Below, piece after piece: positions 14,201 to 48,954 of a DNA stretch of 64,000 nt (its first letter is position 1; the number at the start of each line of letters is the position of its first letter). The position numbers and the translations under genes were made by a program. The DNA comes from an uncultured Candidatus Saccharibacteria bacterium (lineage in GTDB: Bacteria > Patescibacteriota > Minisyncoccia > Phycocordibacterales > GCA-2401445): the NCBI GenBank assembly GCA_964436015.1, contig CAYTAR010000002.1, forward strand, positions 73,521-137,520, read 5' to 3'. The notes below the pieces were generated by a model. The model saw nothing but the letters and a program-made list of their open reading frames with translations. It was not told the DNA's origin and searched no databases.

Positions 14201-17200
14201 ATTCTCCATTTTCAACCATTACGTTTAGTAGTAGTGGCGGAGGGTGGACGGTTGCAGAAAACGCAACCGCAACGGTGGCATGGAATTTAACAAATGCTGC
14301 TTCATTTACGGTACAATCAGGAGTGACAATTGATATTTTAGGAATATTTTCACATAGTATTGCGTCCTCTTCAACAACGTGGACCGGGTCAACACTTAAA
14401 CTAAATTCAGGAGGAAGTGTTTCCCTCAATACAAAAACATCTTCAGGTGATACGTACGGCACCCTTTTGGTTGGAAGTGGCACCCGTGCGTCCATGTGGA
14501 ATTCTGACGCAGTTGCGGTTATTACAAACACAAATAGTTCTCTCTACTCCCAAGATCATGCAAGCGTGAATGGAAGTCTAGCAATTTTTGGTGATTATGT
14601 TCGCACTAGTGGTACTGAACACTGGTCGTATGCAACTGATTTTGATGGTACGAGTTTAACTGGAGGAAATGAGCGTTCTGTTACGGTTGCTTTTGCACCA
14701 AATGCTACAGGAACAATATCAAACGCAACGCTTTCTGTAGTGGGGGAAGAGAGCGCAACAACAACTATCACCAACCAAGGAAGTGGAACGTATGGTTTGC
14801 GAGTGATCAATGGAACAACCACTGCTGAGTACTATGCGGTACGTAATACTAATACTGACGGTTTTGTTATCACAGGAAATTCAGTAGTTACTTCACTCTC
14901 TGATGGAGACTTTGAATTAGGTGTAGATGGGGGTAGCATGCTCACAGTCTCATCTTCTACTATTGGTATAAATCCAGTACTTCAAGTATTCAGAACACGC
15001 TTTGCGACATCAACTGGTGTAACGAGTGGTTTCAACGTAACGGCAACAGGAACACCGACTTCATATTGGTGGTTTAGAGAACACTATGGTAACTATGATG
15101 GAGAAGCGCATGACAGTGACCCAGGTGGAAATCCAGGAGACATTTGGTGGGATGACAGTAATTTAACTATTACTATTTCAGGCATCGTGTATGAAGAGGA
15201 TAGAATAACTCCGCTTGGTGGACCAACGTGTAACGGAAGTACTGAAATTGTTACAGTATACGTTCCAAATAGTGGGACATTTACTGCAAGTTGTAATAGT
15301 GGAACGGGAGCATTCAGTATTCCAGATGTCTCATTCAATGGGGATGTGTTGATGACTGTGTACTTAGACACCAATGGTGGAGCAAAAGCGGTAACCGTAC
15401 TTAAAACACCGAGTGCTAATGTTACTGATCTTGCGTTGTATCAAAATTGGCTTACAGTGAGAAATGAAGACGTAGGTCCAGTAACCATTCTTGATTTAAC
15501 TACATTCGATTCAAACAACGATGGTGATATTTTCTATACTGCAGAGGATAGCTCTCCTGATACATTGACACTGTCTCCTGAGTTTGGTGTGTATATTCCT
15601 TCTGGTAAAACATTTGCGCCGGGAGGGAATATCACTCTTTCTTCAGGAGGAGTTGGTTCGATAGACGGAACTCTTGAACTCGGTCCAAGTGCTCGTCTTA
15701 CACTTGCGAATGGACAGAGTCATGCTATTGGAGGAAGTTTTATAGTTGGTACTAATGCCACCGCAACTATTGCAAGTTCTACACTAGCCTTTACCGCAAC
15801 CACATCAGGAAAAATTATTACCCCGAACGGTTCAAGTTTGTATAATGTGTCTTTCCTCGGGTCAGGGGGCGGATGGATCCTCGGTACATCAACTATTACC
15901 GGCGATTTTGTACTCGATGCAGGCGTTGTGTCTGGGGTATCAAATGTGGCAGTTACAAGTGGAGATATTACTGGAGACGGTGAACTCGCTTTTACAGATG
16001 GAATATTTACGTTAAGCGGAGCAGGGCAGTTTGGTGGAAGTCAGCCGTGGCTGTTTGCAGGTCTTACGCTTGGCAATGGTGCTACAGTAGCAACAACCAC
16101 CAAATATGGAAATAATACCATTTCAGCACGTACGCTTACGGTGGGTGCTAATCATGTATTAGATGCAGGAGACGACACGTGGACACTTTCAGGATCAGGA
16201 GCTCCGCTTGTTACAACCGGAACATTGAATGCAAGCACTTCATCTTTTATCTACACCGGTACTAGTGCAACTGCAATTTCTGCTGAAGATTATTACAATG
16301 TATCTTTTGCTCCACAGTCAGGCTCTCCTACATATACTACCGCTTCGGGAAATATTTCAGCCTACAATATTACCGTAGGGAATGGCACAGATGCGGTTTC
16401 TGTTAATGCAAATACCAACGACCCAATAATTTCAGTAGCAAATAACTTTACTATTTCAGACGGAGCGACCTTTATTGCTTCCAATAGTTCTGATTTGGTA
16501 ATTGCGGGAAGTTATGAAAATAATGGAACATTTACGCACTCATCTGGTACGGTGCGGTTTAATGCTTCTAATACCGGAGAGAACATATCAGCTGGTGCTT
16601 CATCTTTCGGCACGGTGGTGCTTAACAATTCACTCGGTGGGTGGACGGTTACTGAAAATGCCACCACAACTGGTGCATTTATTCTTGCGTCCAGCTCAAG
16701 TTTTACTTTGGCGGATGGTGTAACTCTTACCGTAGGTGGTGTGTTTGAAAATTCAGTGTTAGGTTCCGGGACTACCTGGTCAGGTTCTGTGTTGCGTTTA
16801 AATGGAGGAGGAAGTTTCAGTATAAACAGCGCAACAAGTTCTGGAGATACATATGGAATTCTTGAGGTAACTAATGGAACTGATATCCGCATGTGGTCAT
16901 CATCCGCAGGAACCACTACCGTGGCGTCTACCGCATCACTCTACTCACAAGACCACAGTGGTGTAGATGGAAGCCTCTACATTTGGGGAGACTACGCGAG
17001 AACTACGGGAACTGACTACTGGAGCTACGCAACTGATTTTGACGGAACAAGTCTCACTGGAGGAAATGAACGACAGGTGAATGTCCGTTTCGCACCAAAT
17101 GCAACCACTACTCTTTCAGGTGGAAGTTTGCAGATTGTGGGAACATCAACTGCAACAACTACCATAGACAGACAGTCTACTGGTACGTACGCGCTACGCA

Positions 17201-19848
17201 TTACCGGAGGAACACTCAATGCAAATAGGTATCAAATTAGAAATATTGATAGTTCTGGATTGACGTTGAGTGGTACACCAACCGTGACAAGTCTTTCAAA
17301 TGGAGATTATGAGCTCAGTAATGAGGGAGGGACAATGATTTCCGTTTCTTCTACCACGATTGATTTTAATCCAACACTCACTATAAGTGCGGTTCGTTTT
17401 GCAACCAGCACCGGAATTACTAGTGGCTTTAACGTTACGCGCATAGGCACCCCAATAAACGCGTGGACATTTGCAGGACATAGTGGAAATTTTGACGGCG
17501 AATCATATGACGATGATGGGGGAGATGCGTGCGGATATATACGTTGGAGTGACAGTGTGTGTCTCTTCGTGAGCCAAGATGCGTATCGATTTAGAAATGA
17601 TAATGGTGGGGAAGGAGTTCCGGTGGATGAGTGGTTTGATGCAGACTGGGGTAAGCGTGTAGGGGTGCACATTTCAAATGCATCCACTTCCGCGCTTACC
17701 AACCAACAAATACTGATAGAGTTACCTAAGGCTGCGAGCATGCAAAGTGATTACGGTGATTTGCGTTTTACTGATAGCTCTGGAACAACCACTATTGATT
17801 ACTGGATTGAACGTTACACCACATCTACTTCCACCGTATGGGTAGAGGTTCCGTATATTCCTGCTGAAGAATCTACATATATCTACGCATACTATGATAC
17901 TGTTGCAACACTCACCACAACTGGAGTTGCCACATCAACGTTTGTGGTCTATGACGGCTTTGAAGATAATAATATTAGCGAGTATTCCGGTGATACTTCT
18001 ATGTTTGCAGTCTCAGCAACATTTGATTTTGAGGGAAATTATGGACTAACTTCGTCACCAGGAAACGAAGATCAAAGGACCACGGATGGTATATATCGTA
18101 CCGGAGCTGGTAGCACGATATCGCAAGGTCAGACAATTCAATTTGCTCAGTATATCGATACTTCTCTTGGTTTTCAAGATGAACCGTGTATGTTGTTTGG
18201 GGTTCAGACACCAGGTTCAAACAATCAAAATTATGCTGCGTGTTTGGATGTGTTCGGAGATTCTGTTGTTATTGCTAAGGACGTTTCTTCAAACGATAGT
18301 TCTGGAACAACGCTCGCAAGTGATACGTCTGTAGGTTTTTCAAGTGGTTGGTATACGGTTGAAATTGATTGGTTAACAAGTGGTATCATTGCAGTGCGTG
18401 TGTACGATGACAGTGGAGCGCTTTTCTCAGAAGTAAGTACAAACGATGCGAGTTATAGTTCGGGAGGTTATGGATTTGGTTATTGGCTTCAATATGGTGG
18501 TTGGGATTATGTGAGCGCACAATACTACATAGCAATTCCGCTTACATACTCTTTTGGTTTAGAGCAAGTTGGAGGTGGGGCCACATGGAGTAGTGCTGAA
18601 AACACACCACTTACCGGACAAACCACTGATGAGGACATTAGACTTAGATTCCTCGTGAAAAATTCAGGACCTGGAATTACAGATCAAAACTTTAGGTTAC
18701 AAATTGCACCGAAAACAGGATATGGTAGCTGTGCTTCAGTTCCATACAATTTATATGAAGATGTTCCGGTGAGCGGTAGTTGTGGCAATTCAGCCGCGTG
18801 TATGTCTACTTCAAGCGAGGTGGTTGATGGTGCGTTGACGTCTCAACTTCTTTCAGTTCCAGAAAACTCATCATTTATTCAAGGTAATTTTGTTGAAAGC
18901 CCATCAAACCAAACAAGTGCGATTGATATTGATACAAATGAATATACTGAAATAGAGTATATATTTGGTCTGACAAATTATGCAATTGATTCAGCATATT
19001 GTTTCCGAACAACTGATTCGGGTGTCCCCCTTGATAATTACGCACATGTTGCAGAAATAAGTTTAATATTCCCACCAACAATAACAAACTTTAACCTCAA
19101 TAACACACAAGCAATTGAGCTTTTGAATGGCACAACTACAACAGTGTATGCAACAGGAACCGCTATTGATTTGAATGGTTTTTCAGATTTCCTATTTGCG
19201 ACATCTACCATATACAGAACAGGAGTAGGTCCGTCATGTACTCCTAATGATAATTCATGCTATCAGATTGCAAGTACTTCATGTTCATTTACCAACTGTT
19301 CCGGAAATAGTTGTGAGGTAATTTGTGGCGCAGATATTGCATTTTTTGCAGATCCAACTGATGGTGGTGCGTTTATAGGTGAAGAATGGGAGGCACAGAT
19401 TACGATCGTGGATCAAAGCGGCTATAGGGATACAGGGGTGACCATGGGAGTTGAGTTGGGAACACTGCGAGCACTTGCTGTTGAAAATGAAATCGATTAT
19501 GGGGAACTTGAAGTGGCGAGTGATACAGGAGCGACGAATGCAACAAGTACGGTAATAAATAAAGGAAATGATTATATTGATGTTGACGTGTACGGAACCG
19601 ACCTAGTGGGAAATGCAAGTACTATTACAGTTGATAATCAGAAGTTTGCTACATCAACTTTCTCATATACCGCGTGCGCCTTCTGTCCTTTTCTTGATAG
19701 CAATCCAGTACCTGTTGGAGTAAACCTCATTAAGCCGACATCATATACTCCAATTGAAACTGATATATATTGGGGAATTCAAGTTCCACTTGGCACTGCT
19801 GGGGTTCCTCATTACGGACAGACCACATTTGAAGCTGCTGGAATATAG
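5293..19848 (+). CDS. Giant (4851 aa) secreted/surface protein with multiple repeat modules
   Basis: A single uninterrupted ORF with a signal peptide (MRLFNVTKKVAVISGALSLSLFVLTGSMYL).
- Three phage tail-collar-like repeats (GxxTHTHTVS...HTH) lie at about 8100-9010.
- FN3-like YWWRVRAWDP and YWWRARAKDP modules lie at about 9880 and 10680.
- A duplicated module sits near 10190-10390 and again near 12180-12380.
- A ~1-kb internal duplication spans 14161-15160 and 16558-17560.
- A DUF2341-like segment (GDLRFTDSSGTTTIDYWIERY...VWVEVPYIP...IYAYY) and a LamG-like segment lie at about 17730-18550.
- The C-terminal domain ends IYWGIQVP. Confidence 0.7.
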   Translation: MRLFNVTKKVAVISGALSLSLFVLTGSMYLRSANAEPVVEGSVYLLPTEVSGSGWQNISTIGTQDVSGDALFSSFNVKNSSFIIFKNGAYKEEEVLPSVEELNVVTEVVTENNEEEGGGKSVEVNEIEDESIPYATSTEVMGEVETLVSTSTSDTVVEVSGEEYVDQENTTSSTTQNIDINNLLSEEVLEEAEETINTSTVSDFEQIESGETSLPSEEESGVEESAPAPVTRFFDAVKRVLFSLIPDAVFADEISTTTQTSTLEVLSDLSVFGESSSTASVVTEVTQIFNEIKVPERVIPPVERVAVDSVPPVVTVLGNNPAVIPLGATYNDLGASVTDNVNNNLGVKVFLDNEEVKRSVSIDTTTPGKYRIMYQATDQAGNVGNAVRMVYVGIEPDNTDEVLEMVVSDAQETFTCIEGDMCTSNVLEVGGFGVGADAFSGAIETAQLRISAGGKVYYRDEETKPLKLNIQYFYEDSWIDAGSIILDEEVSNALNGGYFLYALPIFESWDALSDFRVRVRYDHPKTLEGEVYIDSIWVEIFSGEGSGGEDGRVTKEEAKKIEIAKRVKSPKLNSVIKGKSFFEVSESPEFEFEYTLQRSKLSRFVRGLFTDGPKYRVGLIEVKTASGQGVHMPISVRYGGDERWRLLIEKNQASMHPGKYEVSVTIHEGSKTFTDSFEFYWGVLTVNTNKSIYVEGETVQFSMAALTDNGHTMCDADLRLTVLDPEGSEVSVPVQQSGLCDGNNVVDVPDYFGEMSVGGVGEYSVLLERYDELGSLVIQTHDIFQVKEFVSFDVERTGPTRIYPPAPYTMKLSFTAYESFSGIVTETLPKGFVVEESDGGIVSITENAVEISWPVSVRAGEYVEKSYQFDAPDISPYIFELGPLVFKKQGVSIVMQDTPDCIEENCVQFGEDEIVFEEIRTWKIASDAVGRMLILWDGGAAPSGWECVSCTGGDPFYQRFIRGEATYGATGGSATHTHTVSTAIGGPSASTGQTPGGTTVSGSGHTHTLTPTIGTGSNLPEYRQLRVLRSTSAGTPATLPAGAIVFFTDTVPAGWTRYSAQDGRFVRGENTVTTTGGSNTHTHAISGTTGAASGDTYGTQSGQTRADVAQANHTHTVSGTTNAGTNVPPYIETILGKINAEGSLPIGMLAMWDEDVPVGWNHMSESGDPFYQRFILPSATYGTTGGTSTHSHANQDIVSSVPAQVTTARAVGNVSSADHTHIVSLTNYSSQNHLPPYINVVIAEFLGTDPVFSQALFRWYTNTNAETPTDAWPSGGTLNIIENEPITSTSTPLKPNDVVRLRMSVGVSNATSTAGSVDFKLQYGQGSSCGAVATWSDVGEISSSTPWRGYNNASVLDGATLSSTTLSLSTVFGSYEEENNSTTTPNEAGVGEYIEFDWVLQHNNATSGVEYCFRMVEGDGTPFLTYSTYPKLQTNSAPETSTLTRLFDNEKVASTTPHFWFVSTDDENNTLYYQIQIDEAPDFASTVVDKNSQAHGSLFTNLVSPTQKEPYTQGNTVRFIPDVSLTNNTTYWWRVRAWDPTGSTNYSEWSNPQSFTVDVTVVESTWFQTTEEQFDTNTLSGVYTPGIDAVELNVGSTTGAMYSSLIEFSSGTYGNIWEEFSFNDVETTGSISYQIEYQTATGTALIPNSVLPGNSTGFGTSPVSLAGVDPELYDTLRIVANFTNSGGSPRLLDWTLTWGTKIDAPTHLLPFANERFPTTTPTFTFVTTDPQSDDLQYEISWSTDNTFTSSTTRNSLNHSGFRNSENAGDTNPFNSGDVVAFTIQPADALTASTTYWWRARAKDPNGGNSFSDWSEPKSFTHNYNDIVSTWFQTTDEQFSTNVLSGTRITGSDALTVATTSIEAMIAYGEAAVTTPRYRIWDGASWSTEGSALTVGAQINWVVLKEAPTREEYILGTLGTDSDVNVQIYSEGVWGNLFEVTPSISNANKRGFDIAYESLSGDAMVVTCDGDSNPTFYVWNGSSWSSPGTITTATGSSCEWIRLASNPVSDEIIMVTLPGGGAQYEAQVWNGSVWGNAVTWGGMSEANEGIGVAYQPNGALAVVTVNNDGASPPSRMSSRTWNGSFWSGTTNTNVGYFEQGSLVGDDGTNNMNLCFVNDATTIQTIPWNGTAWGTQVQLDAVAHGKDDRPVDCVYEVTSGRDGNVMVAYSDATAARFSVFSGTWSTEASISTIGRSATIQLERTGNGLILGTFFDHVNGQYDFSYWNGSAWSTAQTLEASPSVSSAPFKEPFMMAARGPATSGVVAVSPGIVFTEGTGPYWGEITFNHTTPGSSNIVYQVQYATGTTYALIPDGALTGNSTGFTSGPIDLTGLDIETYGTLRLRATLTCDGANCPTLNDWTLTWAEGATISGTIAEYDEATNVTSGTVSVAVNGVLQTGKTGTIQGDGTWSIANVTLFENDVVTVFVSGATDENKAVGVTKYDGSGDVTGMQLFERHVTIGSNDAPLITNADLGLFDREVAGNDLFHTVDASNNFFATSTGAGFNDVVLFIGTGATYQPDSASSGDVATHDIVVEGTFVGNGNTISLSGSWVNSGTFTAGTSHVIFTATTGAESLDGTGASVNDFYRVTFGQTTGSATWALETPLVVTNNTAIDYGTLSPGTQPLLLGGNLALGVNGIFTKGSATTTFNGTGSSSWTDLSASKQDLGIVVVDGTSKTVTLGSNVRATNIIIGSNDTFDVTTGNYTVFVEGSWTNNNVFLSRQGGVNFSGSVTNTPIQSGSSSFYNLSFSGTGSWLFTPTTVTVTNDFSVSNGAVTLPSGTTTVNGSFSVTGSGSFISNTGTVAFAGTGSGKTISQNGSDFYNLSFTGSGAWSFTETHATTTNNVRVTAGSVSAPSGVFAIGGSFTNSSTFTHNSGTLRFFSSSQGRSVNPGSSSINNIIFDGVGGGWSLPPASNVTVLGDFTIISGIATGTAGTLSVGGSWYVDSLLGTFNHSNGTVLFNSSDTGEIVESGDSPFSTITFSSSGGGWTVAENATATVAWNLTNAASFTVQSGVTIDILGIFSHSIASSSTTWTGSTLKLNSGGSVSLNTKTSSGDTYGTLLVGSGTRASMWNSDAVAVITNTNSSLYSQDHASVNGSLAIFGDYVRTSGTEHWSYATDFDGTSLTGGNERSVTVAFAPNATGTISNATLSVVGEESATTTITNQGSGTYGLRVINGTTTAEYYAVRNTNTDGFVITGNSVVTSLSDGDFELGVDGGSMLTVSSSTIGINPVLQVFRTRFATSTGVTSGFNVTATGTPTSYWWFREHYGNYDGEAHDSDPGGNPGDIWWDDSNLTITISGIVYEEDRITPLGGPTCNGSTEIVTVYVPNSGTFTASCNSGTGAFSIPDVSFNGDVLMTVYLDTNGGAKAVTVLKTPSANVTDLALYQNWLTVRNEDVGPVTILDLTTFDSNNDGDIFYTAEDSSPDTLTLSPEFGVYIPSGKTFAPGGNITLSSGGVGSIDGTLELGPSARLTLANGQSHAIGGSFIVGTNATATIASSTLAFTATTSGKIITPNGSSLYNVSFLGSGGGWILGTSTITGDFVLDAGVVSGVSNVAVTSGDITGDGELAFTDGIFTLSGAGQFGGSQPWLFAGLTLGNGATVATTTKYGNNTISARTLTVGANHVLDAGDDTWTLSGSGAPLVTTGTLNASTSSFIYTGTSATAISAEDYYNVSFAPQSGSPTYTTASGNISAYNITVGNGTDAVSVNANTNDPIISVANNFTISDGATFIASNSSDLVIAGSYENNGTFTHSSGTVRFNASNTGENISAGASSFGTVVLNNSLGGWTVTENATTTGAFILASSSSFTLADGVTLTVGGVFENSVLGSGTTWSGSVLRLNGGGSFSINSATSSGDTYGILEVTNGTDIRMWSSSAGTTTVASTASLYSQDHSGVDGSLYIWGDYARTTGTDYWSYATDFDGTSLTGGNERQVNVRFAPNATTTLSGGSLQIVGTSTATTTIDRQSTGTYALRITGGTLNANRYQIRNIDSSGLTLSGTPTVTSLSNGDYELSNEGGTMISVSSTTIDFNPTLTISAVRFATSTGITSGFNVTRIGTPINAWTFAGHSGNFDGESYDDDGGDACGYIRWSDSVCLFVSQDAYRFRNDNGGEGVPVDEWFDADWGKRVGVHISNASTSALTNQQILIELPKAASMQSDYGDLRFTDSSGTTTIDYWIERYTTSTSTVWVEVPYIPAEESTYIYAYYDTVATLTTTGVATSTFVVYDGFEDNNISEYSGDTSMFAVSATFDFEGNYGLTSSPGNEDQRTTDGIYRTGAGSTISQGQTIQFAQYIDTSLGFQDEPCMLFGVQTPGSNNQNYAACLDVFGDSVVIAKDVSSNDSSGTTLASDTSVGFSSGWYTVEIDWLTSGIIAVRVYDDSGALFSEVSTNDASYSSGGYGFGYWLQYGGWDYVSAQYYIAIPLTYSFGLEQVGGGATWSSAENTPLTGQTTDEDIRLRFLVKNSGPGITDQNFRLQIAPKTGYGSCASVPYNLYEDVPVSGSCGNSAACMSTSSEVVDGALTSQLLSVPENSSFIQGNFVESPSNQTSAIDIDTNEYTEIEYIFGLTNYAIDSAYCFRTTDSGVPLDNYAHVAEISLIFPPTITNFNLNNTQAIELLNGTTTTVYATGTAIDLNGFSDFLFATSTIYRTGVGPSCTPNDNSCYQIASTSCSFTNCSGNSCEVICGADIAFFADPTDGGAFIGEEWEAQITIVDQSGYRDTGVTMGVELGTLRALAVENEIDYGELEVASDTGATNATSTVINKGNDYIDVDVYGTDLVGNASTITVDNQKFATSTFSYTACAFCPFLDSNPVPVGVNLIKPTSYTPIETDIYWGIQVPLGTAGVPHYGQTTFEAAGI

Positions 19849-41935: not shown

Positions 41936-42322
41936 ATGAAAAAGAAAAAGTTATTTGCTCCAAATTGGGAGGTAATTCACCGGACGACTTTATCACGCCT
42001 TGCGTATGCAGTGAGGACTCACAGGATGAGCGAGGAGCAGGCGGGAATTATCCGTGATGCACTTTCGCTCACCAGTGCAGATGGGTTTTACCTACACGTT
42101 CAGCTCACTTATGAGAATGAGTGCGCATACAAGGAAATTCTTTCTCCAATGCGTAAACGTTTGGAGGATGTAAAACAACTGCTCGTAGTAGGGGCAGACA
42201 AAGAAGTCATTGCGCGAATTGTGGTCAGTTTGGAAGGTGATTGTACTGCGGTACGTGTATTTCATAACCGTGTATTCAAGAAAGGAGGTGAGACATATGC
42301 AACCGGTGGAGATGTTTCTTAA
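41936..42322 (+). CDS. Hypothetical protein
   Basis: An ORF with no recognisable motifs. It overlaps the next gene by 26 nt. Confidence 0.35.
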   Translation: MKKKKLFAPNWEVIHRTTLSRLAYAVRTHRMSEEQAGIIRDALSLTSADGFYLHVQLTYENECAYKEILSPMRKRLEDVKQLLVVGADKEVIARIVVSLEGDCTAVRVFHNRVFKKGGETYATGGDVS

Positions 42323-42593
42323 TCCGGGCACACTTTCTCCCGATGGAATTAAGCTCGTGCAGGGGTTTATTGACCGCCATCAATTATCCACTCGGGCGAT
42401 TGTGGAGCTCTGCTTGTTGTTTGAAGATATCAACTCGCGCTACATTACCATTGATGATGTACTCTCTACGTGGAGGTGCTACGGACTGCACGATTGGGCG
42501 TATGACGACTTCGCAGACGTGAGGTGGGGAATATGTCAATGTGTGCTGGTGTATCAGCGCCTCATGAAGCTTCATCGTGAACGGGATACGTGA
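42297..42593 (+). CDS. Hypothetical protein
   Basis: ATG at 42297 preceded by a strong RBS, aggaggtg. The track ORF extends to 42210. Confidence 0.4.
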   Translation: MQPVEMFLNPGTLSPDGIKLVQGFIDRHQLSTRAIVELCLLFEDINSRYITIDDVLSTWRCYGLHDWAYDDFADVRWGICQCVLVYQRLMKLHRERDT

Positions 42594-42621: not shown

Positions 42622-42658
42622 TAAACGCTCGGTGGTACACCGAGCGTTTTTATTTTTT
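42622..42658 (+). terminator. Rho-independent terminator
   Basis: Hairpin aaacgctcgg-tggtaca-ccgagcgttt followed by a T-run. Confidence 0.7.
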
Positions 42659-42728: not shown

Positions 42729-42757
42729 TTGACAATCACTATATTTAGGTGTATAAT
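42729..42757 (+). promoter_or_regulatory. Consensus sigma70 promoter TTGACA-17-TATAAT upstream of the DGR target gene
   Basis: TTGACA at 42729-42734, exact 17-nt spacer, TATAAT at 42752-42757. Confidence 0.5.
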
Positions 42758-42892
42758 TTATAATAAAGTTCTTTGATAGAAATTGCGAGTTCGCTACAGC
42801 AGAAAGTACCTTAAATATTAAGGTTTTCTCCGCTGTGGCGAAGAGTCCAGCAAACTAACCAATATCCCTGAAAGGATACTAACCAAGAAAGG

Positions 42893-43618
42893 GTGACAAC
42901 GATGAAAAATCCATCGATTGCATCAGACAGTGAAGTCAGTGATGGTCAAATCGAAACCTGCGTGACTTTGGTCACCGATGCTACGCGCAAAGGGACAGGC
43001 GCCGCACTCCGCGAACTTGTCAAGAACGGTGTTCTCAACAAACAGAACATTGAACGTGTGCGAGCGCGCGGTAACGAGGTGGTCGCCGAGATCACGAGGA
43101 TCGTGAAGGAAAAGTTTGCAGAAATCGCCGAAAATATCGCTGGTATCGTCAAGCTCATCTCCGGCGCGGAAACCCTTGAACTCGACGAAACGGATGGGAA
43201 TGCAACCATTGCGAAAGCGAAGGATACCTTTCCTGGCTGGATTGATTCCGACTTCAAGGAATACGGTTGCGATGTAAAATCGGAACCTACCAAAAAGGTA
43301 CAGGTTTCCGTCCACGAGATGATCAAGGACGGCACCTTCGCCCAGATCTTTAACGGCATGAGTGACGACTTGAACAAACTCGTTATGACTCAACCGCAGA
43401 TCATTCAGTTCGTGCAGAAACACCGCAAGTGGCTCCGCACGGAAGGGTGTGGGAACTTCTTCCTCTTCAAGGTTGGAAATGAGCTCTTCGTTGCGTACGT
43501 GCGCTTCCGCGACGACGGGCGGCTCGAGGTCCGCGTGCGCCGCTTCTCGTGCGGCCGCGTCTGGCGCGCCGGGCGCCGTCTTCGCGTCGTGGTCCCGCAA
43601 CTGGCACTTGCAAATTAG
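42893..43618 (+). CDS. DGR target (variable) protein; VR occupies the last ~40 codons
   Basis: GTG at 42893, or more likely ATG at 42902 with an aagaaaggg RBS. No signal peptide. The C-terminal segment (VAYVRFRDDGRLEVRVRRFSCGRVWRAGRRLRVVVPQL) corresponds codon for codon to the TR-encoded VANVNFNDDRQLKVNVNRFSNDNVWNAENRHRIVVPKL. Confidence 0.6.
   Translation: MTTMKNPSIASDSEVSDGQIETCVTLVTDATRKGTGAALRELVKNGVLNKQNIERVRARGNEVVAEITRIVKEKFAEIAENIAGIVKLISGAETLELDETDGNATIAKAKDTFPGWIDSDFKEYGCDVKSEPTKKVQVSVHEMIKDGTFAQIFNGMSDDLNKLVMTQPQIIQFVQKHRKWLRTEGCGNFFLFKVGNELFVAYVRFRDDGRLEVRVRRFSCGRVWRAGRRLRVVVPQLALAN
43484..43603 (+). repeat. DGR variable repeat (VR)
   Basis: Aligned base by base with 43920-44039. 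93 of 120 positions are identical. All 27 mismatches fall where the TR has A: A->G x15, A->C x9, A->T x3. The segment is locally GC-rich. Confidence 0.85.
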
Positions 43619-43919
43619 CCTTGAGCCTTTGTCTCTCAGTCCCTCTGACCCTTGTCAAAATTTATTTTGGCAAATCAGGGGGATTTTTGTATACTGAAAC
43701 GGCACGCATGAATGTACGGTGGCTATGGCTCCCGTGCCACGCTTGTGAAAAAATACATTCGAGAATTCTGCCGGACATGTTTTGCGGAAGAGTGGGTGTA
43801 TTTTTATCTAAACAAAAAATAATCAGTTGGTGTAGCGAACTGGAGGACTTCAATGTCCCGAATACTATTCAACCTGTCCTGATTGGGCTGGTGGTGTGCC
43901 GGATGGTTCGCTGCACATT

Positions 43920-44039
43920 ATCTTCGTTGCGAACGTGAACTTCAACGACGACAGGCAGCTCAAGGTCAACGTGAACCGCTTCTCGAACGACAACGTCTGG
44001 AACGCCGAGAACCGTCATCGCATCGTAGTCCCGAAACTG
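43920..44039 (+). repeat. DGR template repeat (TR)
   Basis: A-rich, with AAC codons. Of its 33 adenines, 27 are substituted in the VR. It is non-coding; the track ORFs over it are spurious. Confidence 0.85.
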
Positions 44040-44054
44040 TCATTTCTCTCATCA

Positions 44055-44423
44055 TTATTTGGTGAGAGTTTTGTTGAGTGTTGATTTGGTAGAGGGACTT
44101 TGGAGGCCTTTGCGCCATCCGCCAAGCATTCGTCCTATTTCTTCTAACTTTTCGGAAAGCTCGGTATATTTATCGGTAGGAATTAGCTTGTTTTCCCATG
44201 CTAGTTGATAAAAGAATTTAAGAGTATCTACCTTCGTTATGGTTCGGCCAAGCATAACTATCTTGGCTTCAGGTGGCAGATAGATGCAGGCAAAACTGAA
44301 TTCCAAAGTATCTAAGAATAGGTTCTCGATCTTTTGCCCAATACCGAGACGTTCGACTCTCGGGAAGTTTCTATGAATAGCTAACCAGGATTGGTATACC
44401 TCCTTTTCCTTTAGAATTACCAC
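44055..44423 (-). CDS. Avd-like accessory variability determinant (four-helix-bundle protein)
   Basis: 122 aa. The pattern (FPRVERLGIGQKIENLFLDTLEFSFA...KVDTLKFFYQLAWENKLIPTDKYTELSEKLEEIGRMLGGW) resembles the four-helix-bundle/S23-intervening-sequence family that contains DGR Avd. It is encoded on the opposite strand to the TR and RT. Confidence 0.5.
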   Translation of the reverse strand: MVILKEKEVYQSWLAIHRNFPRVERLGIGQKIENLFLDTLEFSFACIYLPPEAKIVMLGRTITKVDTLKFFYQLAWENKLIPTDKYTELSEKLEEIGRMLGGWRKGLQSPSTKSTLNKTLTK

Positions 44424-44463
44424 TGGAGAACTGCGGGGGGGGGTATGTCATAGTCATTTTTTT

Positions 44464-45456
44464 ATGAAAAATAAGGGAGTTACGTACAACCATATCATAT
44501 CTCTCAAAAATATCCACGAAGCATGGTGTGAATTTGTGTCTGGTAAAAAATATAAAAAAGATGTAGCAGAATTTCTGCTCAAACTATCAGAGAACACCTA
44601 TAAACTCCATATTGATTTGAAAAATAAAATATATGTCCACGGACCGTATGAAGCATTTGCAGTTAATGATCCGAAACCTCGCAGTATTCATAAAGCGAGT
44701 GTACGAGACCGCTTGCTTCATCATGCTCTCTATCGACAGCTCTATCCATACTTTGATCAAAAATTTATTTATGATTCCTATTCCTGTCGTGATTTCAAGG
44801 GAACTCATCGGGCACTGGACCGCTTCATGCAATTTGGCCGCAAGGTTTCAAAGAGTAACAAGTGCACTTGTTGGGTGTTGAAGTGTGATGTGCGAAAGTT
44901 CTTTGCTTCAGTGGATCATGTGGTACTCATGACGATACTTAAAAAGCATATTTTTGACTCCAATATTATAAGCCTTGTTAGTAGGGTAGTGGAGAGTTTT
45001 AAGAGTACTGGTCCAGGAAAGGGTTTACCCCTCGGCAACCTTACATCACAGCTCCTAGTTAATGTCTACATGAACGAATTTGACCAGTTTATGAAGCATG
45101 AAATAAAAACTAAATACTACATAAGGTATGCTGATGATTTTATTATTATGAGCAGGGATAGGGATTTTTTAAAGAAATTGATCCCTCAGATATCTAAGTT
45201 TTTGAATGAGAGATTAAAGCTTTCCTTGCATCCTGATAAGGTTTTTATAAAGTCGTTATCATCGGGAGTTGATTTTTTAGGTTGGGTCCATTTTCCAGAT
45301 CATAGGGTATTGAGGACGAGTACCAAAAAGAGAATGTTTAGGAATTTGATAGCAAAAGAAGCTAAAAAAGAAACTGTACAGTCGTATCTCGGGTTACTGA
45401 AGCATGGAAATACAAGGAAGTTGGAAAATTATATTAGAAATAGTTTTTTACCATAA
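44464..45456 (+). CDS. DGR reverse transcriptase
   Basis: RT motifs: VLKCDVRKFFASVDH (motif A region), GLPLGNLTSQLLVNVYM, and YIRYADDFIIM (YADD catalytic motif). At 330 aa it is typical of DGR RTs. Confidence 0.85.
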   Translation: MKNKGVTYNHIISLKNIHEAWCEFVSGKKYKKDVAEFLLKLSENTYKLHIDLKNKIYVHGPYEAFAVNDPKPRSIHKASVRDRLLHHALYRQLYPYFDQKFIYDSYSCRDFKGTHRALDRFMQFGRKVSKSNKCTCWVLKCDVRKFFASVDHVVLMTILKKHIFDSNIISLVSRVVESFKSTGPGKGLPLGNLTSQLLVNVYMNEFDQFMKHEIKTKYYIRYADDFIIMSRDRDFLKKLIPQISKFLNERLKLSLHPDKVFIKSLSSGVDFLGWVHFPDHRVLRTSTKKRMFRNLIAKEAKKETVQSYLGLLKHGNTRKLENYIRNSFLP

Positions 45457-45471
45457 AAATGTTAAAATGGA

Positions 45472-48400
45472 TTGATGAATGAAGGAGAGAAACCACCGAA
45501 GAGTAAAGTTGCAGAAACCGAAGAGAAGATACTAGATTTCTGGCAAAAGAACGATATTTTTAAGAAAACGCTTGAAAAATCCTCACCCAAGGGTGATTTT
45601 GTGTTCTATGACGGTCCTCCATTTGCAACTGGACTTCCTCACTACGGACACATACTTCCTGCGACCATGAAGGATGTCATTCCTCGCTTTAAAACAATGC
45701 AGGGGTATCGGGTGCGAAGAAGGTGGGGGTGGGACTGTCACGGGTTGCCGGTGGAAAACTTGATTGAAAAGGAGTTGGGACTCAAAGACAAGCAGGATAT
45801 TTTGCGATTCGGTATTGGGAACTTTAATGATGAAGCCAAAAAGAGCGTGCTTCGCTACGCAGACGATTGGAGGCGTGCGGTCCCAAAGTGGGGACGGTGG
45901 GTTGATATGGTTGATGACTATCGCACCATGGATCTTTCATACACGGAATCTATCTGGTGGATGTTCAAAACGCTCCATGATAAAAATTTAATTTCTGAGG
46001 GGTATAAGTCAATGCATTTGTGCCCTCATTGCGAAACTACACTTTCAAACTTTGAGGTCAATCAGGGGTATAAAGATATTACAGATATTTCCGTGTATGT
46101 CGCTTTTGAGCTTGAGAACGAGCCGAATACTTTTTTGCTGGCATGGACGACAACACCATGGACGCTCCCAGGGAATGTTGCTCTTGCGGTTAATCCAGCC
46201 GTTGCATACTCTACAGTTGAGAAAGATGGGAAGCGTTATATCCTCGCGGAAGATCTTGTTGCAAAGAGGTTTACGCTTGAGGGTGAGACTGCAGTCGTTG
46301 GTAACAAGATAAAAGGCTCTGAGCTTATTGGCAAATCATACAAACCCGTATTTCCATACTACGCAGAAGATACGACGCTAGAAGGAAGAGAGAAGGGGTG
46401 GAAGGTATATGGTGCGGATTTTGTAACTACCGAAGATGGAACCGGAATTGTTCACATTGCTCCAGCATTTGGAGATGACGACATGACGCTCGGGAAAAAG
46501 GAAGGTCTGCCATTTGTTCAGCACGTTACTACTGGTGGAATTTTCAAGCCTGAGGTACGTGATTTTGCGGGGGTGTACGTAAAACCAAAAGATGACCACC
46601 AATCGGGTGATGTTGCGATAATAAAATATCTTGCTCACAAGGGAGTGCTTTTTGCGAAAGAAAAAATTATTCACTCATACCCTCACTGTTGGCGTTGTGA
46701 TACTCCACTTTTGAACTATGCATCAAGCTCGTGGTTTATTACGGTAACTGCGATTAAGGATAAACTCGTTGAGGAAAATAAAAAGGTACAGTGGGTACCA
46801 AAAGAGATGGGTGAGGGTCGTTTTGGGAAGTGGCTTGAAGGGGCGCGCGACTGGGCTATCTCACGCTCTCGTTTTTGGGGAGCTCCGCTTCCAGTGTGGA
46901 GGGATACGGACGGGAAAGAAGTCTTTATTCCCGCTTCGGTTAAAGAACTCAAGGAGCGAATCGGGTTTAGAAATACGTACGTGGTTATGCGTCACGGTGA
47001 AGCGGAGAGTAATGCACAGAATATTTTAAGTGGGAAAAAGGATAACCCGCACCATATAACAGAGAAAGGGAAAAAGGAGGTTGAACAAGCAATTCTTGAG
47101 TTACAAGGAAGAGCTATTGATATGGTTTTTGTATCGCCTTTTGTGCGCACACAAGAAACGGCACATATGGTACAAAAAGCATTAGGCTTAAACGATAGTC
47201 AGATAGTTACTGAGGATAGAATTGCTGAGATAGATACAGGTGATTTTAATAACAAGCCGATTGAGGAGTATCGGGCGTACTTTGAGAGCACCACTGAAAA
47301 GTTTTCAAAACGTGCCCCTAATGGCGAGAGTTTGCGTGATGTACGTACGCGCGTGGGTGAATTTTTGTACGAGATTGACAAGCGATATGAAGGTAAAACT
47401 ATTCTCATTATCACGCATGAGTATCCAATCTGGCAGTTGTACTCGGTTGCGGAAGGGTGGGATGAACGTGGATCAATCAAAGCAAAAGACGGAAGAGATG
47501 ATTTCGTTAAAACGGGAAGCGTGAGCGAGATCACCTTCGCGCCACTTCCGGTGAATGAACAGTTTGTGACTGACTTGCATCGTCCATACATTGACGAAGT
47601 GGTGCTGACAACAAAGGATGGCGCTCCGATGAAGCGAGTACCTGAAGTATTTGATTGTTGGGTAGAGTCAGGTTCCATGCCGTTTGCATCTCATGGGTAC
47701 ATAGGTAGCCCGCTCCCGCATTTTGATCCACAAAACAATGTTGGTTTTCCTGCTGATTTCATTGCAGAAGGACAGGACCAGACACGTGGGTGGTTTTACT
47801 CACTCATCGTGCTTGGCGTGGCGCTCTTCGGAGAGTCGCCGTATAAGAATGTGGTGGTGAATGGAATTGTACTTGGTGAAGATGGACAAAAAATGAGTAA
47901 ACGTCTCAAAAATTATCCTGACCCGATGCACGTTGTTGAAAAATATGGAATGGATGCATTGCGTTTATATTTACTCGGTTCACCTTTGGTAAAAGCTGAA
48001 GATGTTTGCTTTTCGGAGAAGAGTGTTGATGAAATAATGAAAAAGAATATCGGGCGACTTGATAACGTGGTCTCATTTTTTGAGATGTTTAAGGAAGGGG
48101 AAGAAGTACGTGGGGAGAGTGAACACGTCTTGGACCGGTGGATGGTAAGTAAAAGAAACCAGTTAATTATTTCTGTATCTGCATCGCTTAATGCGTACCA
48201 GTTTGATCGCGCGGTACGGGCTGTAGCGGAGTTTATTGAGGATCTTTCAACCTGGTATGTCAGACGTTCGCGTGACCGTTTTAAAGGGGAGGACTTGAGT
48301 GATGTGGCATGTGCACGTAAGACGCTCAGAGAAACACTTTCTATTCTTGCGCGAGTAAGTGCTCCACTGATTCCATTTACCGCTGAGCATGTGTACAGGG

Positions 48401-48954
48401 CCGTGAGAGAAGAAAGCGACCCCGAGAGTGTACATCTCTCAGAGTGGCCAGTAGCAGGAGTGGTGGACGAAACTCTTCTTTCATACATGAATACTGCGCG
48501 AGAGTTGGTGTCATTTGGGTTTGATGCGCGCACAAAAGCAAAAATAAAAGTTCGCCAACCCCTCGCATTGCTCACCATAAAAGAGAAACTTCCAGCAGAA
48601 TTTCTTGATCAAATTGCCGATGAAGTAAATGTGAAAGAGGTTATTGTTGGAGATACCAAAGAAGATTCTGTATTGCTTGATACGACACTTACCCCCGTAC
48701 TTGTTACCGAAGGGTATCAGCGTGACGTTATTCGTCATGTGCAGGAAAAGAGAAAAGAAGCGGGGCTACAGACGAGTGATAAAATAGTACTCATGATTGA
48801 GGGGGATAGTAATACGCACGCTTTTATTTCAGCAATTGAGCACGAGCTTGGGCGCGTGGCGCAGGTTGCGCGTTTTGAATACAAGGGGCCAGGTGAAGAT
48901 AGTTCTCTCGTACTGGGTAGTTTCTCTTTCTCTTTTTCGGTGAAGAAATTGTAA
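45472..48954 (+). CDS. ileS: Isoleucyl-tRNA synthetase (type 2) with inserted histidine-phosphatase (PGAM-like) domain
   Basis: PPFATGLPHYGHIL (HIGH region), KMSKRL (KMSKS), and WAISRSRFWGAPLPVW are all IleRS-typical. An in-frame ~200-aa insert at about 46972-47568 carries RHGE...N, SPFVRTQETA and ITHE motifs. Confidence 0.85.
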   Translation: MMNEGEKPPKSKVAETEEKILDFWQKNDIFKKTLEKSSPKGDFVFYDGPPFATGLPHYGHILPATMKDVIPRFKTMQGYRVRRRWGWDCHGLPVENLIEKELGLKDKQDILRFGIGNFNDEAKKSVLRYADDWRRAVPKWGRWVDMVDDYRTMDLSYTESIWWMFKTLHDKNLISEGYKSMHLCPHCETTLSNFEVNQGYKDITDISVYVAFELENEPNTFLLAWTTTPWTLPGNVALAVNPAVAYSTVEKDGKRYILAEDLVAKRFTLEGETAVVGNKIKGSELIGKSYKPVFPYYAEDTTLEGREKGWKVYGADFVTTEDGTGIVHIAPAFGDDDMTLGKKEGLPFVQHVTTGGIFKPEVRDFAGVYVKPKDDHQSGDVAIIKYLAHKGVLFAKEKIIHSYPHCWRCDTPLLNYASSSWFITVTAIKDKLVEENKKVQWVPKEMGEGRFGKWLEGARDWAISRSRFWGAPLPVWRDTDGKEVFIPASVKELKERIGFRNTYVVMRHGEAESNAQNILSGKKDNPHHITEKGKKEVEQAILELQGRAIDMVFVSPFVRTQETAHMVQKALGLNDSQIVTEDRIAEIDTGDFNNKPIEEYRAYFESTTEKFSKRAPNGESLRDVRTRVGEFLYEIDKRYEGKTILIITHEYPIWQLYSVAEGWDERGSIKAKDGRDDFVKTGSVSEITFAPLPVNEQFVTDLHRPYIDEVVLTTKDGAPMKRVPEVFDCWVESGSMPFASHGYIGSPLPHFDPQNNVGFPADFIAEGQDQTRGWFYSLIVLGVALFGESPYKNVVVNGIVLGEDGQKMSKRLKNYPDPMHVVEKYGMDALRLYLLGSPLVKAEDVCFSEKSVDEIMKKNIGRLDNVVSFFEMFKEGEEVRGESEHVLDRWMVSKRNQLIISVSASLNAYQFDRAVRAVAEFIEDLSTWYVRRSRDRFKGEDLSDVACARKTLRETLSILARVSAPLIPFTAEHVYRAVREESDPESVHLSEWPVAGVVDETLLSYMNTARELVSFGFDARTKAKIKVRQPLALLTIKEKLPAEFLDQIADEVNVKEVIVGDTKEDSVLLDTTLTPVLVTEGYQRDVIRHVQEKRKEAGLQTSDKIVLMIEGDSNTHAFISAIEHELGRVAQVARFEYKGPGEDSSLVLGSFSFSFSVKKL

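What the first reader, a model, noticed from the sequence alone, without database searches (positions are those of the whole stretch)
42729..45456. Complete diversity-generating retroelement with adenine-specific VR/TR pair
VR (43484-43603) and TR (43920-44039) align without gaps over 120 bp. Every one of the 27 mismatches sits at a TR adenine; 6 TR adenines are unchanged and there are no non-A mismatches. That is the signature of DGR mutagenic homing.

A YADD reverse transcriptase (44464-45456) and an Avd-like four-helix-bundle gene (44055-44423) complete the cassette. A perfect TTGACA-17-TATAAT promoter lies upstream of the target.

Two things are unusual. The Avd-like gene is on the opposite strand to the TR and RT. 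The order is target-VR, then TR, then avd (minus strand), then RT.
Basis: seen in the sequence. Interest (0 to 1): 0.8.

Follow-up and report, generated by a model that had tools for sequence, protein, structure and literature searches.

The report
Patescibacterial diversity-generating retroelement, standard CPR layout
This is a real, intact diversity-generating retroelement that rewrites the tip of one small protein at adenine-templated positions; its "odd" gene order is the usual one for these tiny uncultivated bacteria, though its template RNA has an undescribed structured leader.

Summary
VR 43484-43603 and TR 43920-44039 align without gaps, and all 27 mismatches fall on the 33 TR adenines (P about 2e-21).

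The RT (44464-45456) is closest to the Bordetella phage DGR RT and carries the LGxxxSQ and YADD motifs. The minus-strand gene (44055-44423) passes Pfam's bAvd threshold.

The same cassette, target-VR, about 300 nt, TR, avd(-), RT, occurs in 27 related Patescibacteria loci, all with adenine-only VR/TR mismatches. Three near-identical strains of one relative differ in the VR only at TR-adenine positions, so the family was recently active.

The "unusual" inverted avd is architecture B3, TR-(avd)-RT, which Wu et al. 2018 report for 90% of CPR DGRs. The element is therefore a new member of a known kind.

Four features go beyond the finding:
- The TR lies in a roughly 372-nt unit with an invariant -10 box, a 5' leader of about 215 nt with strong covariation, and a conserved 3' hairpin plus U-tract.
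- No conserved structure lies in the antisense-avd stretch where a Bordetella-type spacer would sit.
- A conserved poly-G tract separates avd and RT.
- The target's VR domain is only weakly C-type-lectin-like.

The parts
42729..42757 (+). Promoter of the target gene (TTGACA-17-TATAAT)
   Evidence: 12 of 12 consensus match. Both hexamers are conserved upstream of target homologues in about 19 loci. Function is inferred from consensus only.
42790..42842 (+). Conserved long hairpin in the ~145-nt 5' UTR of the target mRNA
   Evidence: RNAalifold on 15 loci gives 20 pairs, 11 with compensatory changes. No Rfam match. Role unknown.
42902..43618 (+). Target (variable protein) gene, 238 aa (alternative GTG start at 42893)
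   Evidence: ORF. More than 300 homologues, all Patescibacteria or unnamed, with no Pfam, NCBIfam or PDB sequence match. The AF2 model has pLDDT 89.5.
43484..43603 (+). Variable repeat (VR), the last ~40 codons of the target
   Evidence: Homologues are hypervariable exactly at codons templated by TR AAC: FVAxVxFxDxGxLxVxVxRFSxDxVWxAExRxRxVVPQL.
43598..43618 (+). VR-specific 3' boundary (IMH-like): CGCAACTG then GCACTTGCAAATTAG, differing from the TR flank
   Evidence: Homology with the TR ends at 43603. The fixed C (VR) against A (TR) is seen in nearly all loci. Assignment as IMH is by analogy.
43640..43688 (+). Hairpin (43640-43648 / 43675-43683, extending to 11 bp in relatives) plus T-run. 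Likely terminator of the target mRNA, possibly the DGR inverted repeat downstream of the VR
   Evidence: 89% of cells paired against 27-64% for slid controls. 5 of 11 pairs have compensatory changes, and G-U pairs favour plus-strand RNA.
43667..43695 (+). Promoter of the TR RNA (TTGGCA-17-TATACT)
   Evidence: 10 of 12 match. The -10 box TATAMT is invariant in 25 loci.
43701..43919 (+). Structured 5' leader of the TR RNA. Helices: P1 43715-24/43727-36; P2 43753-61/43793-801 and 43766-76/43779-89; P3 43830-41/43905-16, enclosing 43845-48/43855-58 and 43872-75/43889-92. Also an invariant AGUUGGUG motif at 43824-43831
   Evidence: 96% of cells paired against 42-48% for slid controls. 43 pairs have compensatory changes against 14-22. 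0 of 500 shuffles reach the observed values. No Rfam family matches.
43920..44039 (+). Template repeat (TR), with 33 adenines and 9 in-frame AAC codons
   Evidence: TRs are identical among near-identical strains whose VRs differ.
44046..44072 (+). Hairpin (44046-44054 / 44060-44068) plus UUUU directly after the TR. Terminator-like, and positioned like the Avd-binding stem-loop of other DGRs. It overlaps the avd stop codon
   Evidence: flags it as terminator-like. GAGUUUU is invariant and the stem covaries in 25 loci. A stem-loop at this position was surveyed by Handa et al., bioRxiv 10.1101/2023.10.23.563531.
44055..44423 (-). avd (accessory variability determinant), 122 aa, GTG start
   Evidence: Pfam bAvd PF22296 scores 44.8 bits, above the gathering score of 40. 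NCBIfam DivGenRetAVD scores 59.8 bits, below its cut-off of 80. The minus-strand orientation is conserved in all 27 cassettes.
44435..44443 (.). Poly-G tract (G9) in the 40-nt avd-RT divergent intergenic region
   Evidence: It is the only G or C run of 8 or more in the window. A tract of G8-G13 is present in 25 of 27 cassettes. It reads 9 against 10 in near-identical strains. Role unknown.
44464..45456 (+). DGR reverse transcriptase, 330 aa
   Evidence: RVT_1 4.3e-25. The best PDB relative is 8ub7, the Bordetella phage bRT, at 2.6e-40. The LGNLTSQ and YADD motifs are visible in the alignment.

Best explanation
This is a chromosomal diversity-generating retroelement of the Patescibacteria (CPR) lineage, lying between argS and ileS.

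Proposed mechanism:
1. The target gene (42902-43618) is transcribed from a strong promoter.
2. Its last ~40 codons (the VR) are periodically overwritten by cDNA copied from the TR (43920-44039).
3. The RT (44464-45456), working with Avd (44055-44423, minus strand), copies the TR faithfully except at adenines. Up to about 30 positions, mostly the first two bases of nine AAC codons, are therefore randomised while scaffold residues are kept.
4. Randomisation stops before the VR-specific 3' boundary (CGCAACTG...).

What is shown here:
- the adenine-specific VR/TR pattern;
- the family membership of the RT and Avd;
- conservation of the cassette in 27 loci;
- recent adenine-site VR change in near-identical strains of a relative;
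- a conserved, covariation-supported RNA structure around the TR.

What is inferred:
- The TR RNA is its own ~372-nt transcription unit, made of the invariant -10 box, the structured leader, the TR and the hairpin plus U-tract.
- The leader supplies the RT/Avd-docking, priming and stop functions that the 3' spacer supplies in the Bordetella phage element.
- Helix P3 ends 3-4 nt before the TR and would act as the stop for cDNA synthesis.
- The 3' hairpin binds Avd and/or terminates transcription.

The biological role of the variable protein is unknown. It is a small soluble-looking protein with an N-terminal helical hairpin and a C-terminal alpha/beta domain whose diversified residues alternate along beta-strands. 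It is most likely a binding module.
For: - VR/TR: 27 of 27 mismatches at TR adenines, P 2e-21.
- RT: nearest to bRT 8ub7 (2.6e-40) and well separated from group II (1.5e-22) and retron RTs. All NCBIfam group II, retron and DRT models score far below their cut-offs.
- Avd: passes Pfam's bAvd threshold.
- Cassette: 25 genome loci and 2 metagenome loci share target-VR, ~300 nt, TR, ~16 nt, avd(-), RT. Across the 25 genome loci, 393 of 663 TR-A sites are changed, against 8 non-A mismatches; the 2 metagenome loci also show adenine-only VR/TR mismatches.
- Target homologues vary exactly at TR-AAC codons.
- Strains L046, L047 and L008 differ at 15 of 2760 nt. Five differences are in the 3' part of the VR, all at TR adenines (P 1e-3), and the TRs are identical.
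- RNA: the unit from the -10 box to the U-tract is 370-400 nt in all 25 loci.
- RNA: 96% of cells paired against 42-48% for slid controls, and 43 against 14-22 pairs with compensatory changes.
- RNA: no conserved structure in the 150 nt 3' of the hairpin.
- L003 and L004 keep target, leader, TR and hairpin without avd or RT downstream.
- Literature: architecture B3 is typical of CPR (PMC5758913). CPR DGRs form a cellular clade whose targets lack recognisable domains (PMC8144416).
Against: - There are no population or read data for this exact strain, so current activity here is inferred from intact parts and from relatives.
- Promoters and the terminator are consensus matches only. No convincing promoter was found for the RT or avd, so read-through from the TR into the RT cannot be excluded.
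- Avd scores below NCBIfam's equivalog cut-off (59.8 against 80).
- The proposed pairing of leader AGUU with the TR 3' end rests on 4 invariant pairs. Its extension is only marginally supported (P 0.02-0.06).
- A single-sequence fold of the RNA is not unusually stable (z -1.48).
Confidence: 0.9

Rival explanations
1. It is a DGR with classical RNA logic. The hairpin after the TR is only an Avd-binding stem-loop, not a terminator. The TR RNA continues 3' through the antisense of avd into the RT, giving one TR-spacer-RT transcript as in Bordetella phage. The spacer functions lie in that antisense-avd stretch. The conserved leader is then a regulatory or stability element, or the 3' UTR of the target.
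For: - No convincing separate RT promoter was found.
- Handa et al. report stem-loops just 3' of the TR as Avd-binding elements in 207 of 278 DGRs, including CPR ones.
- The U-tract is short, at 4-5 U.
Against: - RNAalifold finds no conserved or covarying structure in the 130-150 nt after the hairpin.
- The alignment there decays as avd C-termini vary, whereas the leader is strongly structured.
- The -10 box upstream of the leader is invariant, and the unit length is fixed at 370-400 nt.
- L003 and L004 keep the unit without avd or RT downstream.
Confidence: 0.3
2. It is a decayed or silent DGR. The parts are present, but the element no longer homes in this strain, and the VR/TR differences are a historical record.
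For: - There are no population data for this strain, and its target protein has no full-length near-identical variant in the protein collection.
- 82% of TR adenines are already substituted in the VR.
Against: - All ORFs are intact and full-length, with catalytic motifs.
- The TR, leader helices, -10 box and hairpin match the family consensus.
- There are zero non-A mismatches in 120 bp, which argues against long neutral drift.
- A close relative shows recent adenine-site VR change.
Confidence: 0.08
3. It is not a DGR. A group II intron, retron or defence RT happens to lie next to an unrelated diverged direct repeat.
For: NCBIfam's top-scoring model is group_II_RT_mat (146 bits), and retron and DRT models give weak hits.
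Against: - All those hits are far below their cut-offs (146 against 300, 65 against 235, 81 against 200).
- The best solved relative is the DGR RT.
- Rfam finds no group II intron or retron RNA at E up to 1.
- The adenine-only mismatch pattern has P 2e-21 and recurs in 27 loci.
Confidence: 0.01

Closest known systems
CPR/Patescibacteria DGRs: architecture B3, TR-(avd)-RT, of Wu et al. 2018 (PMC5758913); DGR clade 2 of Roux et al. 2021 (PMC8144416)
   Same: - Chromosomal and cell-encoded.
- Order is target-VR, TR, reverse-strand avd, RT.
- The target has no recognisable domain or membrane anchor.
- The bias is adenine-specific.
   Different: Nothing defining differs. Three features were not found described in the papers I could read: the covariation-supported 5' leader of the TR RNA, the conserved poly-G tract between avd and RT, and this particular target family.
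Bordetella phage BPP-1 DGR (mtd-VR, avd, TR, spacer, brt); RNP structures 8ub7-8ube
   Same: - The RT is homologous across its full length (E 2.6e-40).
- Avd is present.
- The VR is at the C-terminus of the target.
- AAC-rich TR.
- A stem-loop lies directly 3' of the TR.
- A duplex abuts the 5' end of the TR (here P3).
   Different: - avd is inverted and lies between the TR and RT.
[quoted passage not shown]
- The conserved structured RNA lies 5' of the TR.
- The element is chromosomal, not phage-borne.
- The target is not a tail-fibre protein, and its fold is only weakly CLec-like.
C-type-lectin-fold DGR variable proteins (Mtd, TvpA 2y3c, archaeal AvpA, TaqVP)
   Same: - The VR lies in the C-terminal alpha/beta domain.
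- Topology is beta-alpha-alpha-beta-beta-beta-beta.
   Different: - No CLec or FGE Pfam match.
- Variable residues alternate with conserved ones along three beta-strands.
- The usual CLec VR sequence signature is absent.

Membership tests
Diversity-generating retroelement | VR/TR near-repeat whose differences are confined to TR adenines | tested here: met
   27 of 27 mismatches at TR A, with none at other bases, over 120 bp. P 2e-21.
Diversity-generating retroelement | RT of the DGR clade ([LIV]GxxxSQ in motif 4, YxDD), distinct from group II and retron RTs | tested here: met
   LGNLTSQ and YADD are present. The best PDB relative is bRT 8ub7 at 2.6e-40, against group II at 1.5e-22. No dedicated DGR-RT HMM was available and no phylogeny was built.
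Diversity-generating retroelement | VR at the 3' end of a protein-coding target; TR non-coding and close to the RT | tested here: met
   The VR ends 15 nt before the target stop codon. The TR is 424 nt upstream of the RT start.
Diversity-generating retroelement | Accessory protein Avd (four-helix bundle) | tested here: met
   Pfam bAvd scores 44.8 bits, above the gathering score of 40. NCBIfam DivGenRetAVD scores 59.8, below its cut-off of 80. No structure was predicted.
Diversity-generating retroelement | IMH at the VR 3' end, distinct from IMH* at the TR | tested here: inconclusive
   Homology ends at 43603/44039 with different flanks. A fixed CGCAAC (VR) against CGAAAC (TR) difference is seen across loci, and the last three TR adenines are not randomised. 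The function of this boundary cannot be tested here.
Diversity-generating retroelement | Variation within a population restricted to TR-adenine positions | tested here: inconclusive
   Not testable for this strain, because there are no reads and no close full-length variant. It is met in a relative: all 5 VR differences among three near-identical strains are at TR A.
Diversity-generating retroelement | Variable region displayed on a C-type lectin fold | tested here: inconclusive
   [not shown]
Architecture B3 (CPR-type DGR) | Core order TR-(avd)-RT with avd on the reverse strand | tested here: met
   Coordinates. The same order is seen in 27 loci. The definition comes from PMC5758913.
Bordetella-type DGR RNA (TR followed by a structured spacer; Rfam RT-10 motif) | Conserved structured spacer RNA between the TR and RT on the TR strand | tested here: not met
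   No Rfam match at E up to 1. No conserved structure beyond the first hairpin in the 130-150 nt after the TR.
Bordetella-type DGR RNA (TR followed by a structured spacer; Rfam RT-10 motif) | Stem-loop of about 9 bp directly 3' of the TR (Avd-binding element) | tested here: met
   An 8-9 bp covarying stem at 44046-44068. Binding to Avd is not testable here.
Group II intron | Intron RNA domains flanking an RT/maturase | tested here: not met
   No Rfam group II hit. TIGR04416 scores 146 bits, below its cut-off of 300.
Retron / defence RTs (DRT) | A family-specific RT model score, and an msr/msd or associated ncRNA | tested here: not met
   The retron model scores 64.8 against a cut-off of 235. 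Drt3a scores 81 against 200. No Rfam retron RNA matches.

The most novel reading that the evidence does not exclude
In this CPR lineage the DGR RNA appears to be a rearranged, self-contained small RNA gene. The elements that dock RT-Avd, prime cDNA synthesis and stop it lie in a ~215-nt structured leader 5' of the TR, not in a spacer 3' of it.

The contiguous leader segment 43822-43841 would clamp both ends of the TR. AGUU would pair with AACU at the TR 3' end, and P3 abuts the TR 5' end.

In addition, a hypermutable poly-G tract in the 40-nt avd/RT divergent promoter region would act as an on/off or dosage switch for the diversifier.
Probability: 0.35. Interest if true: 0.6.

Novelty: new member of a known kind. 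Interest (0 to 1): 0.4.

Why it matters
As a DGR, this element adds one more well-preserved example to a class already catalogued in CPR bacteria. That alone is ordinary.

Its value is as a clean comparative model. Twenty-seven syntenic cassettes give enough covariation to draw the RNA that surrounds the template in the commonest but biochemically unstudied CPR architecture. They suggest that the functional RNA lies upstream of the template, which would change how DGR RNAs are searched for and engineered. Current surveys look 40 nt upstream and 100 nt downstream.

The conserved poly-G tract hints at phase-variable control of hypermutation.

The target family has more than 300 members and no annotation. 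It is a compact scaffold with alternate-residue diversification on beta-strands. It is a candidate new binding scaffold and a handle on what episymbiotic Patescibacteria need to recognise.

Tried and rejected
- Metagenome scan with a degenerate VR/TR pattern (N at TR adenines) to find strain-level VR variants: no hits. A second scan with the VR 3' end found only two more distant loci, which show the same cassette.
- Exact look-up of the window's target protein. It is in the collection on one NCBI contig, but its only cluster mate is a fragment lacking the VR, and no contig could be fetched. Within-strain variation therefore could not be tested.
- Foldseek against the PDB found nothing significant, and the afdb50 library was unavailable.
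- Rfam at a permissive threshold gave no family for the leader, the 5' UTR or the hairpins.
- The TR-internal helices proposed by RNAalifold have no compensatory changes and are not claimed.
- The leader GUUG pairing with an internal TR CAAC is invariant, so it is uninformative.
- The extension of the leader-to-TR-3' duplex beyond four invariant pairs is not significant.
- A hairpin around the avd start seen in some loci does not form in the window and was dropped.
- No convincing sigma-70-like promoter was found for the RT or avd.
- The two ORFs between argS and the target (41936-42322 and 42210-42593) have no Pfam match.
- Paul et al. 2017 (CPR DGRs) was not held. The supplements of Wu et al. 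were not held either, so I could not check whether this VR belongs to one of their UVR1-6 classes.
Full report
**1. The observation**

The region was read directly and the two repeats were compared base by base. VR 43484-43603 and TR 43920-44039 align without gaps over 120 bp. There are 27 mismatches, and each one sits where the TR has an adenine (15 A>G, 9 A>C, 3 A>T). The TR has 33 adenines, 6 of them unchanged in the VR. No other base differs.

If 27 mismatches were placed at random among 120 positions, the chance that all hit the 33 adenines is 2e-21. Degenerate patterns covering both halves of the repeat find only these two copies in the window, so there is no second target here.

The VR is the last ~40 codons of a 238-aa ORF (42902-43618). 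Read in that frame, the TR carries nine AAC codons (the translation is).

The perfect TTGACA-17-TATAAT promoter at 42729-42757 is real. It follows a strong terminator at 42623-42649.

**2. The proteins**

The 330-aa product of 44464-45456 matches RVT_1 (4.3e-25). Among all solved structures, its best relative is the Bordetella phage DGR reverse transcriptase 8ub7. The match has E 2.6e-40 and runs from residue 10 to 310. The best group II intron RT is far behind at 1.5e-22. That alignment shows the DGR-type LGNLTSQ motif and YADD. NCBIfam's group II, retron and DRT models all score far below their cut-offs.

The 122-aa minus-strand product of 44055-44423 passes Pfam's bAvd threshold, at 44.8 bits against 40. 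It scores 59.8 bits on NCBIfam's DGR Avd model, below that model's strict cut-off of 80.

The target protein matches nothing in Pfam, NCBIfam or PDB sequences.

**3. Relatives**

The target has more than 300 homologues. All are unnamed or from Patescibacteria (Paceibacteria, Taylorbacteria and similar). Homologues that are 80-88% identical elsewhere are hypervariable at alternate positions of the C-terminus. The pattern is FVAxVxFxDxGxLxVxVxRFSxDxVWxAExRxRxVVPQL, and each x corresponds to a TR AAC or other adenine-bearing codon.

A scan of one genome per species returned 39 loci. Of these, 24 distinct loci, plus the window itself, carry the whole cassette in the same order and orientation:
- target(+) with VR;
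- a gap of about 300 nt;
- TR(+);
- about 16 nt;
- avd(-);
- RT(+).

Two further metagenome loci are the same.

In every case the VR/TR mismatches are essentially adenine-only. Over the 25 loci, 393 of 663 TR-adenine sites are changed (G 197, T 119, C 77), against 8 non-adenine mismatches.

The closest syntenic relative, L001, lies between argS and ileS like the window. The element is therefore chromosomal.

**4. Recent activity**

No close variant of the window's own strain could be found. Three near-identical strains of a relative were available: L046, L047 and L008, whose target is 83% identical to the window's. They differ at only 15 of 2760 cassette positions:
- Five differences fall in the 3' quarter of the VR. 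All five are at TR-adenine positions (P about 1e-3 for position, and 1e-4 for clustering in the VR).
- Their TR, leader, avd and RT are identical.
- One further difference is the length of a poly-G tract.

This is what a recent, partial, 3'-anchored retrohoming event should look like.

**5. The "unusual" architecture is known**

Wu et al. 2018 define architecture B3 as TR-(avd)-RT, with avd on the reverse strand. [quoted passage not shown]

Roux et al. [quoted passage not shown] They predict novel C-type-lectin variants there (PMC8144416).

The finding is therefore a new member of a known kind.

**6. The target fold**

AlphaFold2 with 115 homologues gives a confident model (pLDDT 89.5). It has an N-terminal helical hairpin (residues 14-77) and a C-terminal alpha/beta domain. 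The three strands at 194-232 carry the VR.

I read this as a very divergent, minimal CLec-like domain. The assignment is not secure.

**7. The RNA around the template**

This part goes beyond the finding.

*Conservation.* The ~300 nt between the target stop and the TR are strongly conserved in all 25 loci.

*Hairpin after the VR.* Directly after the target stop there is a hairpin at 43640-43648 / 43675-43683 with a T-run. It is 89% paired, against 27-64% for slid controls. Five pairs have compensatory changes, and its G-U pairs imply plus-strand RNA. It is most simply the target's terminator.

*Promoter.* Overlapping that hairpin is a promoter-like site, TTGGCA-17-TATACT at 43667-43695. Its -10 box is invariant. 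From that box to an invariant GAGUUUU after the TR is 370-400 nt in every locus.

*Structure.* RNAalifold on this unit predicts 74 pairs. The controls are:

| Measure | Predicted structure | Slid controls |
|---|---|---|
| Cells forming a standard pair | 96.1% | 42-48% |
| Pairs with compensatory changes | 43 | 14-22 |
| Covariation score | 0.516 | about 0.12 |

None of 500 shuffles reaches the observed values.

*Supported helices.* In window coordinates these are:
- P1, 43715-24 / 43727-36;
- P2, 43753-61 / 43793-801 together with 43766-76 / 43779-89;
- P3, 43830-41 / 43905-16, which encloses two small hairpins;
- the hairpin 44046-53 / 44061-68 directly after the TR.

Helices inside the TR show no compensatory change and are not claimed.

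*Downstream region.* The 130-150 nt after the hairpin, which are the antisense of avd, show no conserved structure.

*Separable unit.* L003 and L004 keep target, leader, TR and hairpin with no avd or RT downstream.

**8. Reading of the mechanism**

In the Bordetella element, the RNA surrounding the TR wraps the RT-Avd complex. That RNA is mostly the 3' spacer. According to Handa et al., it:
- provides an Avd-binding stem-loop just 3' of the TR;
- provides the cis-primer;
- forms a stop duplex at the TR 5' end.

Their survey looked only 40 nt upstream and 100 nt downstream of the TR (bioRxiv 10.1101/2023.10.23.563531).

Here the 3' hairpin fits the Avd-binding stem-loop, and it also looks like an intrinsic terminator. 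P3 ends 3-4 nt before the TR, where a stop duplex would sit, but its partner strand lies upstream.

The invariant leader motif AGUU (43824-43827), just 5' of P3, can pair with AACU at 44035-44038 at the TR 3' end. This is where randomisation stops, because TR A44034-A44036 are never randomised in VRs. However, that duplex is four invariant pairs, and its extension is only marginally supported (P 0.02-0.06).

My preferred model is a self-contained ~372-nt TR RNA whose 5' leader replaces the 3' spacer. I give this sub-claim roughly even odds. The rival is read-through into the RT, with spacer functions in the antisense of avd. It is kept at about 0.3, mainly because I could not find an RT promoter.

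**9. Verdict**

The "unusual" features are the norm for CPR DGRs.

- Novelty: new member of a known kind.
- Interest: moderate (0.4). It comes from the undescribed leader RNA, the poly-G tract and the unannotated target scaffold, and not from the existence of the DGR itself.

Noticed in passing
window 44435-44443: A G9 homopolymer lies in the 40-nt gap between the divergent avd and RT starts. It is the only G or C run of 8 or more in the 64-kb window. A tract of G8-G13 is conserved in 25 of 27 related cassettes, and it reads 9 against 10 in near-identical strains. It is followed by a conserved -10-like ATAGTCAT. It could be a phase-variable promoter spacer, although an assembly error in the homopolymer is not excluded. 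I found no paper linking DGRs and such a tract.
   Followed up: partly
window 42758-42901 (hairpin 42790-42842): The target mRNA has a conserved 5' UTR of about 145 nt with a 20-bp hairpin. Eleven pairs show compensatory changes across 15 loci. The UTR is also present upstream of target paralogues that have no adjacent DGR. There is no Rfam match and its role is unknown.
   Followed up: partly
L003 6001-7200 and L004 92-1300: A relative on a 633-kb contig has the target-VR, the conserved leader, a TR with adenine-only mismatches and the 3' hairpin. It has no avd or RT in the 5.7 kb downstream. The RT may be elsewhere in that genome or lost.
   Followed up: partly
L005 6001-6714 versus L008 (same MAG, CAZAEF01): One genome carries two target paralogues. 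One has the full cassette. The other (87% identical to the window's target) has no TR, avd or RT nearby. It may be a remote second target or an undiversified paralogue.
   Followed up: no
window 43598 / 44034: A fixed difference, CGCAAC (VR, Gln) against CGAAAC (TR, Lys), occurs in almost all loci, and the next two TR adenines are never changed.
   Followed up: yes
window 45472-48954: The isoleucyl-tRNA synthetase just downstream is 1160 aa. On the L001 orthologue it carries a histidine-phosphatase (His_Phos_1) domain inserted within the synthetase.
   Followed up: no
window 41936-42593: About 700 nt of extra sequence lie between argS and the target, relative to the syntenic L001. It holds two overlapping ORFs of about 128 aa with no Pfam match.
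   Followed up: partly
window 5293-19848: A single 4851-aa ORF. It was not examined.
   Followed up: no
window 42902-45456: Base composition changes sharply across the cassette. The target outside the VR is 50.5% GC, the VR 74%, the TR 54%, avd 41% and the RT 36%, against 43% for the whole window.
   Followed up: no
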